Assembly: GCA_963827165.1 (NCBI GenBank)
Contig: CAWGZR010000005.1
Coordinates: forward strand, 384,001-448,000
DNA from: Candidatus Bathyarchaeota archaeon
GTDB lineage: Archaea > Thermoproteota > Bathyarchaeia > Bathyarchaeales > Bathycorpusculaceae
Reading direction: 5' to 3'
DNA: 64,000 nt
Shown: positions 19,835-22,390 of the stretch, in pieces
Layout: every line of letters starts with the position of its first letter
Numbering within the stretch: the first letter of the stretch is position 1
The notes under the pieces: generated by a model
What the model saw: only the letters and a program-made list of their open reading frames with translations
What the model was told of the DNA's origin: nothing
Databases searched by the model: none
Position numbers and translations under genes: made by a program

Positions 19835-19985
19835 GCCACGGCTAAAAAAAACAAGAAAAGCCTGAAAAGTGGGAAAATGATGCAAAAATGGCTCGCCTAG
19901 GCTTAATCAGCATACCTACGCTAGAAAAACTTATATGGCTAGTAATATTTGTTGTTGTTCGCATTATAAATGGAGGTTACTTGAT

Positions 19986-21653
19986 TTGTCATCATTTCCA
20001 ACTCAAGCTGGCGGAGTACCTGTTCTGGTTATGAAAGAAGGCTCAAACAGGTCCCGCGGAAGAGAAGCGCAACACGGAAACATAACTGCCGCTAAAGTTG
20101 TGGCTGAAAGCGTTAGGAGCGCTTTAGGTCCCAAAGGCATGGATAAAATGTTAGTTGACAATTTTGGAGACACCACGATAACAAGTGACGGCCGCACAAT
20201 TTTGGATGAGATGGATGTCCAGCACCCGGCAGCCAAAATGCTTGTTGAAGTTGCCAAGGCACAGGACAATGAAGCAGGTGATGGAACTACATCCGCAGTG
20301 ATAATCGCGGGCGAGCTTCTTAGTAGGGCTGAAGAACTAATAGACAAAAACGTTCACCCAACAGTCATAATTGACGGCTACAGGAAGGCAGCTGAAAAAG
20401 CCCTTGAAACTCTTGAGAAAATAGCTCTGCCAGTTAACTTGAAATCACAGGATTTTCTGATAAAAGCCGCCACAACTTCCATGGGAAGCAAAATCGTTGC
20501 GGAACACAAGGATTACTTGGCGGATATAGCGGTTAAGGCAATGCTTGCAGTCGCCGAGAAACAAGGCGACGTTTACAAGGTAGATGTTGACGACGTGAAG
20601 GTTGAGAAGAAAACAGGCGAATCTCTCAGCGATACAACACTTATCAACGGCATAGTTTTAGACAAAGAAATTGTTCAATCAGGAATGCCTAAGCGAATGG
20701 AAAATGCAAAGATTGCATTGATGGATGCTTCTTTAGAGATTGAGAAAACCGAGTTAGACTCCAAAATAAATATTGAAAGCCCGGATATGATTGAAGCCTT
20801 CCTCAAAGAAGAAGAAACAATGCTAAGAGGCATGACAGACAAAATCTTGGCGTCAGGAGCAAACGTTGTAATATGCCAAAAAGGCATAGATGACATGGCG
20901 CAGCATTTCCTTTCAAGAAAAGGCATCATCGCCATTAGAAGAGCCAAGAAATCCGACATGGAAAAGTTGGCAAGAGCTACAGGTGGAAAAATAGTTTCAA
21001 GCATAAACGCTCTTTCGTCCTCAGACCTTGGCTACGCTGCTTTGGTTGAGGAGCGCAGAATCGGCGACGACAAGATGACTTTTGTTGAAGGCTGCAAGAA
21101 CCCCAAAGCAGTGACTATTTTGATCCGCGGCGCGACGCAACGCATGACCGCTGAAGCAGAACGCTCTATCCACGATGCACTTTGCGTTGTCAGAGACTTG
21201 ATTCAGGAGCCGAAAATTGTTGCTGGAGGAAGTGCACCAGAAATGGAGATGGCGGGAGTGCTTAGGAAGTATGCCGAAACGGTTTCGGGCAGAGAGCAGC
21301 TTGCAGTTAGAGTTTTCGCAGATGCCCTCGAAGCTATAACTGTAACGTTGGCTGAAAACGCGGGCTTAGACCCCATTAACATACTTGTAGAACTGAGAAC
21401 CAGACATGAAAAAGGAGAAACATGGGCTGGCATCGAGGTTCTAAGTGGAAAAGTACAGGATATGTCAAAAGCAAACATTTTCGAGCCGCTGTCAGTTAAG
21501 AAGCAGATAATCAAATCTGCGAACGAAGCAGCATGTATGATACTAAAGATTGACGACGTTATCGCTTCAGGCAAAATGAAGGGACCACCGCCAGGAGCCG
21601 CAGGCGGTATGGGAGGAATGGGCGGAGGATATCCAGGCGCTGGAGAGTATTAA
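19986..21653 (+). CDS. Thermosome subunit (group II chaperonin)
   Basis: [19 protein letters not shown] tail; start moved to TTG at 19986 behind a GGAGGT SD. Confidence 0.97.
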
Positions 21654-21656
21654 AAA

Positions 21657-21899
21657 ACGTCAGAACAAAAAATAAATGTTGGACCACCGAAAATTACTCG
21701 CTTCGAGAAAGCAAGAATAGTTGGAGCTAGAGCTCTTCAAATCTCAATGGGAGCACCGATTTTGGTGGATGCAAGTGAAAATACTAACCCGATAGATATA
21801 GCGTTAAAAGAACTTGATGCGTCAATACTGCCGATAACTATTAGGCGGACATTGCCCGACGGAACCTTCCAAGACATACCGCTAAAATGGCTAACTTAG
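21657..21899 (+). CDS. rpoK: RNA polymerase subunit K (Rpo6), apparent ACG start
   Basis: Not in ORF track. Hand translation: (T/M)[36 protein letters not shown]...PIDIALKEL...[12 protein letters not shown]. Confidence 0.93.
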
Positions 21900-21901
21900 T
21901 C

Positions 21902-22390
21902 TCAACTTTTTTCTTTTAGTTTTTCAAGTTCCGTTTTTGCCTCACAAAGTGTTCTATTGATTTGTTTCCAGTGTGCTCCTTGCCAATAGGTTTGCCCGCA
22001 GTTTGGGCACTTCCAGAACTTTTCGTAGTAAGTGAATGTGGTCTTCTGCAGTTCATCCAAAAGCTGTTCTTTCGAAGTAGCCTTAAGCTTGCCATTGCAA
22101 AGGGGGCAGAAGGATTTTTCCATATCAGCCTCTAAAGTTAACTCATACCTTGCGGCTACTTCCCCCAAGCGTTCAGGTTCGGATTTGCCTTCGACAAAAA
22201 GAGCTTCGATACCCGTGACGGCGGCGTGTCTGTAAAGCTCCAAATCTCTGGTCAGTAAAACTCGTGTTTCTTTCTTTGCCAAATCAAGAAGCGCGTTGTC
22301 ATCGAGTTCAATGTTGTAGACTACGTCCTGTCCCAATATGCGTAGCCAACGTGCAAGTTTTCCCAACATACTGTCAGCTAAGAACTTCAC
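21902..22390 (-). CDS. Mut7-C RNase (PIN + Zn ribbon, DUF82)
   Basis: FLADSMLGKLARWLRILG, LLTRD, CPLCN, CPNCGQTYWQGAHW. Confidence 0.93.
   Translation of the reverse strand: MKFLADSMLGKLARWLRILGQDVVYNIELDDNALLDLAKKETRVLLTRDLELYRHAAVTGIEALFVEGKSEPERLGEVAARYELTLEADMEKSFCPLCNGKLKATSKEQLLDELQKTTFTYYEKFWKCPNCGQTYWQGAHWKQINRTLCEAKTELEKLKEKS

What the first reader, a model, noticed from the sequence alone, without database searches (positions are those of the whole stretch)
21642..21899. rpoK has no canonical start: SD followed by ACG, in frame directly behind the thermosome stop
The sequence reads GGAGAG TAT TAA AAA ACG TCA GAA. No ATG/GTG/TTG occurs before the conserved TRFEKAR motif; the first ATG is mid-domain. 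The ACG sits 9 nt after an SD and would give a natural M-S-E-Q start. A core RNA polymerase subunit therefore seems to need ACG initiation (perhaps by re-initiation), C-to-U editing, or readthrough that fuses it to the thermosome. Gene callers would miss or truncate it.
Basis: partly seen in the sequence, partly recalled or inferred. Interest (0 to 1): 0.75.

Follow-up and report, generated by a model that had tools for sequence, protein, structure and literature searches.

The report
ACG start codon of archaeal rpoK
In this soil archaeon (Bathyarchaeia) the gene for RNA polymerase subunit K very probably begins at ACG instead of ATG, as do several other core genes, so gene-finding software cuts them short.

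Summary
The thermosome gene ends at TAA 21651-53. AAA, then ACG 21657-59, follows in the same frame, and GGAGAG lies 9 nt upstream of the ACG. No in-frame ATG, GTG or TTG occurs before ATG 21747, which lies inside the Rpb6 domain. C21658 is present in an independent DNA run.

In 114 distinct relatives' loci of the same order, the homologous codon is ACG in 55, ATG in 46, CTG in 6, GTG in 4 and TTG in 3. It is never ACA, ACC or ACT. The next codons evolve as coding sequence, and rpoK's frame relative to the thermosome gene varies among relatives.

ACG starts are not special to rpoK. In the same genome hflX, dnaG, mobB and a polB paralogue have ACG at the start position, where relatives have ACG, ATG or TTG. 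Genome-wide, ACG is enriched behind GGAG (odds ratio 2.8, p = 1e-5).

The best reading is near-cognate initiation at ACG by the ordinary initiator tRNA (anticodon CAU), helped by a Shine-Dalgarno site. Readthrough is excluded as a conserved mechanism, and mRNA editing is unlikely. Public databases hold the truncated 50-residue product.

Seven literature searches found no report of conserved ACG starts in archaea. This scan has noted ACG starts before on other archaeal DNA; those are AI notes and I did not rely on them.

The parts
19935..21653 (+). Thermosome (group II chaperonin) gene directly upstream, with stop TAA at 21651-21653. The longest ORF starts at 19935; the true start may be ATG 20031.
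   Evidence: ORF. Pfam Cpn60_TCP1, 641 bits, residues 56-545.
21642..21647 (+). Shine-Dalgarno-like GGAGAG (core GGAG 21642-45) lying inside the last thermosome codons. It is 9 nt upstream of the ACG, or 11 nt counted from the GGAG core.
   Evidence: The 16S rRNA 3' end of this genome reads ...GGATCACCTCCT. GGAG starts at -18..-9 in 51 of 55 ACG-type and 6 of 6 CTG-type rpoK loci, against 20 of 46 ATG-type loci. In L032, L035 and L037 the GGAGAG is kept in the spacer after an earlier thermosome stop.
21657..21659 (+). ACG, the inferred start codon of rpoK.
   Evidence: The homologous codon in 114 loci is ACG 55, ATG 46, CTG 6, GTG 4, TTG 3, with 0 other Thr codons. Its third base is invariant while the first and second bases vary. 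C21658 is confirmed in an independent DNA run.
21657..21899 (+). rpoK (Rpo6, RNA polymerase subunit K) coding sequence as inferred: 80 codons plus TAG.
   Evidence: It is the only copy in the genome.
21696..21833 (+). Match to Pfam RNA_pol_Rpb6 (profile positions 8-52 of 53).
   Evidence: (44 bits, cut-off 26). Solved Rpb6/Rpo6 chains align from residues 7-14 of the stop-to-stop translation.
21747..21749 (+). First in-frame ATG (internal Met31). Gene callers start the gene here, which gives a 50-residue fragment lacking the [17 protein letters not shown] helix region.
   Evidence: this exact 50-residue sequence is in NCBI, JGI/IMG, Logan and ENA collections, on 12 contigs.
21907..21924 (+). 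T-rich tract (T6, T4, T5) just after the rpoK stop. It may be an archaeal oligo-T transcription terminator; this is an inference.
   Evidence: Read directly from the sequence. Not tested.

Best explanation
rpoK is translated from ACG 21657. The ordinary initiator Met-tRNA (anticodon CAU) reads ACG with a mismatch at the middle base. The ribosome is positioned by the GGAG Shine-Dalgarno site 11 nt upstream. Ribosomes arriving from the thermosome gene, whose stop lies 3 nt before the ACG, probably also contribute. The product is an 80-residue subunit K starting (M)[19 protein letters not shown].

ACG is a regular minor start codon in this Bathyarchaeia lineage. In rpoK it is old (order-wide) and looks maintained. 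One plausible reason is that a weak start keeps subunit K low relative to the abundant chaperonin made from the same transcript.

Shown here: there is no canonical start, and the ACG is real in DNA. The codon alternates only with ATG, CTG, GTG and TTG, and coding constraint begins right after it. Other genes show the same thing, and the initiator tRNA is ordinary.

Inferred: Met-tRNAi reads the ACG, the SD site and coupling assist, and the weak start is selected.
For: 1. No in-frame ATG, GTG or TTG lies between the thermosome stop and the Rpb6 domain. An in-frame stop sits 1 codon before the ACG here and 0-2 codons before it in most relatives.

2. In 114 distinct loci of the order the homologous codon is ACG 55, ATG 46, CTG 6, GTG 4 and TTG 3. 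All are one base from ATG, and there are 0 ACA, ACC or ACT. An ordinary Thr codon in the same gene (the T of TRFE) is ACT 67, ACC 24, ACA 12, ACG 11.

3. In 57 aligned loci the start codon varies at bases 1 and 2 (0.14, 0.33) and never at base 3. The following codons vary mostly at base 3: Ser is TCA 41 / TCT 10, and Val is GTA 27 / GTT 23.

4. On a thermosome-protein tree of 86 rows, the clade of other families is ACG 21 / GTG 2 of 23. ATG versus non-ATG needs 9 changes, of which at least 3 are forced by well-supported branches.

5. Other genes of the same genome behave the same way.
- hflX has ACG in 27 of 30 loci behind GGAGG, with a stop directly before the ACG in 4 of them.
- dnaG has ACG in 24 and ATG in 5 of 30 loci.
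- mobB has ACG in 6, ATG in 11 and TTG in 2 of the 19 loci aligned at the homologous start, out of 30 fetched. Its Pfam domain starts at residue 4, and the next canonical start is 21 codons on.
- The polB paralogue has ACG here, while 3 near relatives have ATG and 1 has TTG at the same codon.

6. Genome-wide, GGAG at -17..-11 precedes 5.5% of eligible ACG codons (25 of 451). The figure is 2.2% for ACA/ACC/ACT and 2.0% for other non-start codons. Fisher odds ratios are 2.83 (p = 1e-5) and 2.6 (p = 7e-4).

7. The initiator tRNA has the normal CAU anticodon, A1:U72 and the GGG/CCC anticodon stem. tRNA-Thr(CGU) is an ordinary elongator.

8. An independent DNA run confirms C21658. One RNA contig covering the site shows no C-to-T change.
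Against: - There is no direct evidence of initiation: no ribosome profiling, no N-terminal peptide, and no raw RNA reads with matched DNA.
- The RNA evidence is a single low-depth contig (depth 4.9) from a relative about 95% identical. The site is 21 nt from the contig's end, and the library may carry DNA.
- The link between non-ATG starts and GGAG cannot be separated from shared ancestry. Only 3 independent pairs lie on supported branches, and the sign test is not significant.
- Sixteen of the start assignments were made by hand where the rpoK frame stays open into the thermosome gene, and a few are ambiguous. L031 and L124 could be ACG, CTG or TTG. L026 and L029 could be GTG or ACG. L102 has a TTG two codons upstream.
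- Nine ACG-type loci also have a TTG two codons before GPPK that could serve as a start. Sister loci have TTA or CTA there.
- In other orders of the class the rpoK start is unresolved.
- According to review passages, archaeal aIF1 discriminates against non-AUG codons in vitro.
Confidence: 0.8

Rival explanations
1. C-to-U editing of the mRNA turns ACG into AUG, as in plant organelles, so that initiation is canonical at the RNA level.
For: The comparative pattern (genomic ACG in some species, ATG in others) is also what start-codon editing produces in plant organelles (own knowledge). The RNA evidence against it is thin.
Against: The only RNA contig over the site (X17 record 7, 21638-21788) has no C-to-T change at 21658. 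All 3 C-to-T places of that run are listed elsewhere. CTG, GTG and TTG also occur at the same codon, which editing does not explain. hflX keeps ACG in 27 of 30 loci with no ATG at all; if ACG were fully edited to AUG, genomic ATG would be equivalent and should appear. My searches returned no paper on mRNA editing of this kind in archaea, though none was aimed at editing.
Confidence: 0.06
2. Translation starts at another near-cognate codon further in, at ATA 21672 or ATT 21693, and ACG is just a conserved Thr codon or untranslated.
For: ATA and ATT are accepted rare starts in table 11. Both are in frame and upstream of the Rpb6 domain.
Against: In relatives these two positions vary freely among Ile, Val, Leu and Met codons (ATA, ATT, ATC, GTA, GTT, CTT, ATG), as ordinary hydrophobic residues do. 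No SD site precedes them. The codons between the ACG and these positions show third-base variation with conserved residues (S-E-Q-K), so they are translated. A plain Thr codon would not be ACG in 55 of 55 cases.
Confidence: 0.06
3. Stop-codon readthrough of TAA 21651 makes a thermosome-RpoK fusion, from which subunit K is released or used as such.
For: In this genome the two genes share a frame, separated only by TAA AAA. One relative (G004, L003) has an open frame running from the thermosome gene into rpoK, and a 553-residue 'thermosome' member sits in the rpoK protein cluster.
Against: Frame and spacer differ among relatives. The gap from thermosome stop to start is 0, 1, 2, 3, 4, 6, 7, 8, 13 or 14 nt among loci that have a clean thermosome stop upstream (L031 overlaps it by 1 nt), and it is 13-14 nt in the closest relatives L032, L035 and L037. 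Readthrough therefore cannot be the conserved route. Loci without a thermosome gene upstream still have rpoK (L030, L092).
Confidence: 0.02
4. The gene is damaged (a start-codon mutation, pseudogene or assembly error) and subunit K is truncated or supplied otherwise.
For: An ATG-to-ACG change is a single transition.
Against: This is the only rpoK in the genome. The C is present in an independent DNA run. ACG recurs in 55 of 114 loci across several families, with an intact and conserved coding sequence.
Confidence: 0.01

Closest known systems
Near-cognate (non-AUG) initiation at ACG or CUG in eukaryotes and their viruses, read by Met-tRNAi (examples recalled from own knowledge: AAV VP2, Sendai virus C')
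   Same: The start codon is one base from AUG and is presumably read by the normal initiator tRNA. It is a weak start usable for dosage control. Archaea share the eukaryote-type factors aIF1, aIF1A and aIF2 (passages of PMC4705826).
   Different: Here the codon follows a Shine-Dalgarno site inside a polycistronic arrangement rather than being found by a scanning 40S subunit. It is the only start of essential single-copy genes, not an alternative isoform start. It is conserved across an order of archaea.
Rare bacterial non-canonical starts, for example AUU of infC (own knowledge) and the GUG/UUG starts accepted for bacteria and archaea
   Same: Initiation depends on an SD site at a non-AUG codon. 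The start codon is conserved over long evolutionary time in a housekeeping gene, and a regulatory use of a weak start is possible.
   Different: ACG is not among the start codons of NCBI table 11 (own knowledge). The review passages I read name only AUG, GUG and UUG for archaea. The mismatch is at the middle base, not the first or third.
ACG-to-AUG start-codon editing in plant organelles (own knowledge)
   Same: Genomic ACG sits at the start position, alternating with ATG among related species.
   Different: The one RNA contig available keeps C. CTG, GTG and TTG also occur at the site. hflX never shows ATG. No editing machinery was looked for.
Translational coupling (termination-reinitiation) between adjacent genes of an operon
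   Same: The rpoK start lies 0-3 nt behind the thermosome stop in most loci.
   Different: Coupling explains delivery of ribosomes, not the choice of ACG. The spacer reaches 13-14 nt in the closest relatives, where the GGAGAG is kept. The ACG starts of hflX, dnaG and mobB are not all next to an upstream stop.

Membership tests
RNA polymerase subunit K / Rpo6 / Rpb6 (Pfam PF01192) | Match to the family profile above the curated cut-off | tested here: met
   44 bits against a cut-off of 26, profile positions 8-52 of 53.
RNA polymerase subunit K / Rpo6 / Rpb6 (Pfam PF01192) | Sequence similarity to subunits seen in solved RNA polymerase structures | tested here: met
   3j0k_F E = 6.6e-19 (residues 11-77). 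Archaeal chains 4qiw_K, 9bct_K and 2pmz_K score E = 1.5e-15 to 5e-14.
RNA polymerase subunit K / Rpo6 / Rpb6 (Pfam PF01192) | Single, conserved copy in the genome and its relatives | tested here: met
   1 match in G000; 39 of 41 relatives have a match, and 30 of 30 among genomes at least 90% complete.
Near-cognate (non-AUG) start codon read by initiator tRNA | No canonical start is available upstream of the conserved domain, and the candidate codon differs from AUG by one base | tested here: met
   An in-frame stop lies one codon before the ACG.
Near-cognate (non-AUG) start codon read by initiator tRNA | The orthologous codon in relatives is a recognised start codon, and the codon does not drift synonymously | tested here: met
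   ACG 55, ATG 46, CTG 6, GTG 4, TTG 3, and 0 ACA/ACC/ACT in 114 loci; the third base is invariant.
Near-cognate (non-AUG) start codon read by initiator tRNA | A ribosome-binding site at normal spacing | tested here: met
   GGAG lies 11 nt upstream. GGAG is present at -18..-9 in 51 of 55 ACG loci. Genome-wide the GGAG peak for ACG (-15..-12) coincides with that for ATG. The correlation with start type is not separable from phylogeny.
Near-cognate (non-AUG) start codon read by initiator tRNA | Initiation at that codon shown directly (Met at the N-terminus, initiating-ribosome footprint) | not testable with these tools
   No proteomic or ribosome-profiling data were available.
Near-cognate (non-AUG) start codon read by initiator tRNA | An ordinary initiator tRNA, with no dedicated initiator carrying a matching anticodon | tested here: met
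   initiator-type tRNA(CAU) with A1:U72 and a GGG/CCC stem. tRNA-Thr(CGU) has elongator features. ARAGORN found only 36 tRNAs in all, so a missed gene is possible.
Start-codon C-to-U mRNA editing | RNA reads U where DNA has C | tested here: inconclusive
   one RNA contig from a relative keeps C. Depth is low, there is no matched DNA, and contigs drop rare variants.
Programmed stop-codon readthrough fusion | The downstream ORF is in frame with the upstream gene in relatives | tested here: not met
   the spacer is 0-14 nt in all three frame relations.

The most novel reading that the evidence does not exclude
ACG starts may be a selected class of deliberately weak start codons, on low-copy core genes (rpoK, hflX, dnaG and others), in Bathyarchaeia and perhaps many other archaea. 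Output from such genes would be set, and could be regulated, by the stringency of start-codon selection (aIF1 and related factors). That would parallel the AUU start of bacterial infC or poor-context eIF1 autoregulation. It would make start-codon fidelity a global regulatory input in archaea.
Probability: 0.3. Interest if true: 0.85.

Novelty: new variant of a known kind. Interest (0 to 1): 0.75.

Why it matters
**Annotation.** Standard gene callers do not allow ACG. As a result an essential RNA polymerase subunit is deposited as a 50-residue stub or with a false N-terminal extension. dnaG, hflX and mobB are likewise mis-started. From recall, not checked here: Rpb6 is used as a marker in completeness estimates, so such lineages may be scored as lacking it.

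**Mechanism.** Conserved ACG starts on essential genes would show that the archaeal initiation machinery, which is of the eukaryotic type, accepts a middle-base mismatch in vivo when an SD site is present. The review passages I read name only AUG, GUG and UUG for archaea.

**Evolution.** rpoK and hflX have kept ACG across an order. This argues that a weak start is selected rather than merely tolerated. It also gives a testable case of dosage setting within the thermosome-rpoK gene pair.

Tried and rejected
- **Out-of-frame ATG 21676 plus a frameshift or homopolymer error.** That frame stops after 14 codons, and the ATG exists only where the codon pair happens to be AAT GTT.
- **A second rpoK copy.** None was found.
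- **A dedicated initiator tRNA with a CGU anticodon.** None was found.
- **SD presence versus non-ATG start, tested by independent pairs on the tree.** There were only 3 usable pairs and no significance, so I make no claim of compensation.
- **RNA runs X15 and X16.** Their contigs cover only the thermosome part, up to 21569, and say nothing about the site. No contig bridges the thermosome-rpoK junction in RNA, so co-transcription is not shown.
- **Class-wide survey (120 extra loci).** Outside the window's own order the N-termini differ and I could not assign the rpoK start. Eleven of the 120 loci gave no motif.
- **Phylum-wide survey (60 loci from 23 other families).** Seven gave no motif. In the other 53, most have ATG, GTG or TTG near the upstream stop. 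There was no clear ACG case: L426 and L428 have ACG but also an upstream TTG, and L425 has ACG where its sisters have ACA.
- **Pfam test of 20 ACG-candidate ORFs.** Four support an ACG start (MobB, TP_methylase, HflX, PIN). For three (terminase, LysE, protease) a canonical start also fits. For two (PolB, DnaG) the N-terminus is not covered by a domain. Eight had no family, and three paralogues had hits that do not bear on the start. I chose these 20 by eye from the scan list, and no ACA/ACC/ACT control set was run through Pfam.
- **Literature.** Seven searches found no paper on conserved ACG starts in archaea or on the rpoK start codon.
Full report
**What is in the window.** The thermosome gene ends ...GCT GGA GAG TAT TAA, with TAA at 21651-53 (ORF 19935-21653; Pfam Cpn60_TCP1, 641 bits). 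The same frame continues AAA ACG(21657) TCA GAA CAA AAA ATA AAT GTT GGA CCA CCG AAA ATT ACT CGC TTC GAG AAA GCA AGA and runs to TAG 21897-99. This open frame is RNA polymerase subunit K. Pfam RNA_pol_Rpb6 scores 44 bits against a cut-off of 26, matching 21696-21833. Solved Rpb6/Rpo6 chains align from residues 7-14 onward. It is the only copy in the 3.13-Mb genome.

No in-frame ATG, GTG or TTG precedes ATG 21747, which lies 17 codons inside the domain. GGAGAG (21642-47) ends 9 nt before the ACG. The 16S rRNA of this genome ends ...GGATCACCTCCT, so GGAG can pair with it.

**Is the C real?** A contig of DNA run X2, from a different study than the probable source run, covers 21591-21980 without a single difference. 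An RNA contig of metatranscriptome X17 covers 21638-21788. All three C-to-T differences of that run are listed, and none is at 21658. This is weak evidence: depth is 4.9, the contig comes from a relative about 95% identical, the site is 21 nt from the contig's end, and DNA carry-over is possible.

**Who is it?** Record titles of the nearest loci name Candidatus Bathyarchaeota/Bathyarchaeia MAGs, with Ca. Bathycorpusculum species among them.

**Comparative test on rpoK.** I collected rpoK loci from 40 relatives, 80 named public contigs and further genomes of the same family and order.

- After removing identical copies, 115 distinct loci remain. In 114 a start candidate could be assigned at the position homologous to ACG 21657: ACG 55, ATG 46, CTG 6, GTG 4, TTG 3. 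L128 has no candidate, and L083 and L127 lacked the search motif.
- Sixteen assignments were made by hand where the rpoK frame stays open into the thermosome gene, and a few are ambiguous (L031, L124, L026, L029, L102).
- Every codon seen is one base away from ATG. None of the 55 Thr-type codons is ACA, ACC or ACT. The ordinary Thr codon of TRFE in the same loci is ACT 67, ACC 24, ACA 12, ACG 11.
- In 57 loci that align without gaps, the start codon varies at its first and second bases but never at its third. From the next codon on, variation sits mainly at third bases with residues conserved (S-E-Q-K-I-x-V-G-P-P-K). Upstream codons vary at all three positions.
- In most loci an in-frame stop lies 0-2 codons before the start position.

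Translation must therefore begin at this codon.

**How old is it?** I built a tree from the upstream thermosome protein (86 rows, last 25 residues removed, quick IQ-TREE search). It needs 13 changes of start codon type. ATG versus non-ATG needs 9 changes, of which at least 3 are forced by well-supported branches. The clade holding the other families of the order is ACG 21 / GTG 2 of 23, and the window's own subclade is all ACG. ACG therefore looks ancestral in the order and long-lived, with several switches to ATG inside the genus. The root is not inferred, so the direction of change is an inference.

**Readthrough and frameshift.** The gap between thermosome stop and rpoK start takes values from 0 to 14 nt in all frame relations. 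It is 13-14 nt in the closest relatives (L032, L035, L037), where GGAGAG is kept in the spacer after an earlier thermosome stop. The shared frame in this window is thus incidental. The out-of-frame ATG 21676 stops after 14 codons and is not conserved.

**Shine-Dalgarno site.** GGAG starts at -18..-9 in 51 of 55 ACG loci and 6 of 6 CTG loci, against 20 of 46 ATG loci. Only 3 phylogenetically independent contrasts exist on supported branches, so this association is not established beyond shared ancestry.

**Not only rpoK.** I scanned the whole genome for ACG that is preceded by GGAG and lies before any canonical start of its stop-to-stop ORF. The scan returned several N-termini of conserved proteins. 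Pfam places domain starts upstream of the first canonical start in four of them:

| Protein | Domain span (residues) | Next canonical start (codon) |
|---|---|---|
| MobB | 4-142 (profile 1-131) | 21 |
| Tetrapyrrole methylase | 32-239 | 44 |
| HflX N-domain | 14-100 | 22 |
| PIN protein | 16-108 (profile 27-118) | 46 |

Relatives confirm the pattern.

- mobB has ACG in 6, ATG in 11 and TTG in 2 of the 19 loci aligned at the homologous start, out of 30 loci fetched.
- dnaG has ACG in 24 of 30 loci (the whole genus) and ATG in 5.
- A polB paralogue has ACG here, directly behind an in-frame TGA. Three near relatives have ATG and one has TTG at the same codon.
- hflX has ACG in 27 of 30 loci across the order, behind GGAGG, with a stop directly before the ACG in 4 loci and no ATG in any.

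Genome-wide, GGAG at -17..-11 precedes the following shares of eligible codons:

| Codon | Share preceded by GGAG |
|---|---|
| ATG | 11.2% |
| TTG | 8.6% |
| ACG | 5.5% (25 of 451) |
| GTG | 4.0% |
| CTG | 3.7% |
| ACA/ACC/ACT | 2.2% |
| All other codons | 2.0% |

ACG against other non-start codons gives an odds ratio of 2.83 (p = 1e-5). ACG against ACA/ACC/ACT gives 2.6 (p = 7e-4). The excess is about 16 sites.

**Mechanism.** The genome has a standard archaeal initiator tRNA (CAU anticodon, A1:U72, GGG/CCC anticodon stem), and its tRNA-Thr(CGU) is an ordinary elongator. The simplest reading is that Met-tRNAi pairs with ACG with a C·A mismatch at the middle base, on a ribosome held by the SD site. 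Ribosomes terminating on the thermosome gene 3 nt upstream probably help.

Editing to AUG is the main rival. Three points count against it: the RNA contig (weak), the presence of CTG, GTG and TTG at the same site, and hflX never showing ATG. Full editing would make genomic ATG equivalent, so ATG should then appear. That ACG is kept because it is weak, holding subunit K low relative to the chaperonin, is an inference.

**Range.** In other orders of Bathyarchaeia, rpoK again abuts or overlaps the upstream gene and often shows no canonical start after its stop, but I could not assign the start there. In 53 readable loci from 23 other families of the phylum, canonical starts are the rule and no clear ACG case appeared.

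**Databases.** The exact 50-residue product from ATG 21747 is present in NCBI, JGI/IMG, Logan and ENA collections on 12 contigs. Members of 51 and 59 residues sit in the same cluster. Where the frame is open upstream, callers extend into the thermosome frame (P0002, P0006 and P0013 read ...NTSEQK or ...KTSEQK).

**Literature.** Seven full-text searches found no report of conserved ACG starts in archaea or on rpoK's start.

- Passages of PMC4705826 say archaea permit AUG, GUG and UUG, and that aIF1 rejects AUU in vitro.
- A passage of PMC7261190 says about 30% of putative alternative initiation sites in Haloferax were near-cognate but were set aside. I did not see its Supplementary Figure S8.
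- Passages of PMC8211752 mention aIF1 discrimination.
- All other papers were seen only as search listings.

**Earlier notes of this scan.** A word search returned eight AI notes on other genomes that report ACG starts in archaea. Two are on Bathyarchaeia, and one is on an rpoK directly behind a thermosome gene in another lineage. They agree with my reading, but they are unchecked leads and were not used as evidence. I found them after my own analysis.

**Verdict.** The wider finding is that ACG is a recurrent, conserved start codon in this lineage. The kind of mechanism is known (near-cognate initiation), but it occurs here in a setting not described in the papers I could search.

Noticed in passing
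L346 (G000:C9, tetrapyrrole methylase gene) and relatives L347-L361: The methylase start region reads GGAGGAGT ATG TGA ACG AGC in 5 of 13 orthologues, including this genome, and ATG/TTG CGA ACG AGC in the other 8. In this genome an ATG is followed at once by a stop and then by ACG. The arrangement could mean start-stop plus reinitiation, initiation at ACG, or TGA readthrough. It is not resolved.
   Followed up: partly
L135-L138, L143 and other class-level loci: In other orders of Bathyarchaeia, rpoK also lacks an obvious canonical start. One family reads GGAGGAGGAGGCGCT ATA GCC, with the upstream stop TAG overlapping the ATA. In another family, sister species have GTG or GCG at the presumed start. 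Odd rpoK starts tightly abutting the upstream gene seem widespread in the class.
   Followed up: partly
L003 (G004:C33) and P0132: In one relative the rpoK frame stays open for more than 500 codons back through the thermosome gene, giving a fused open frame. A 553-residue protein named thermosome sits in the rpoK protein cluster. This may be an assembly indel near the GGM-repeat tail or a real fusion.
   Followed up: no
L242, L243, L244 (G000:C5, C10, C12): Three paralogous ATPase-like genes (weak ABC_tran and NB-ARC hits) each begin TDFD[VI]VK at an ACG behind GGAGGGGTATAAGCT or GGAGGGCTACAAGCT. Their first canonical start lies 19-28 codons further in.
   Followed up: partly
whole genome G000: CTG is also somewhat enriched behind GGAG (17 of 457, or 3.7%, against 2.0% background), and CTG occupies the rpoK start in 6 loci. 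TTG is a very common start in this genome: it is the first canonical codon in 1069 ORFs against 1478 for ATG.
   Followed up: no
L400 and L396 (hflX of two relatives): These are the only two readable hflX loci without ACG. They have ACC or ATT at the site, and both have ATA immediately upstream, which may have taken over as the start.
   Followed up: no
window 21902-22390 (-) and 21907-21924: A Mut7-C RNase-domain gene converges on rpoK, and its 3' end overlaps the T-rich tract that follows the rpoK stop.
   Followed up: no
L417-L422, L464 (family f43 of the phylum sample): Another class of the phylum also has rpoK directly behind a gene ending in a GGM-repeat tail (thermosome-like), but with TTG, GTG or ATG starts. 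The thermosome-rpoK pairing is therefore older than the ACG start.
   Followed up: no
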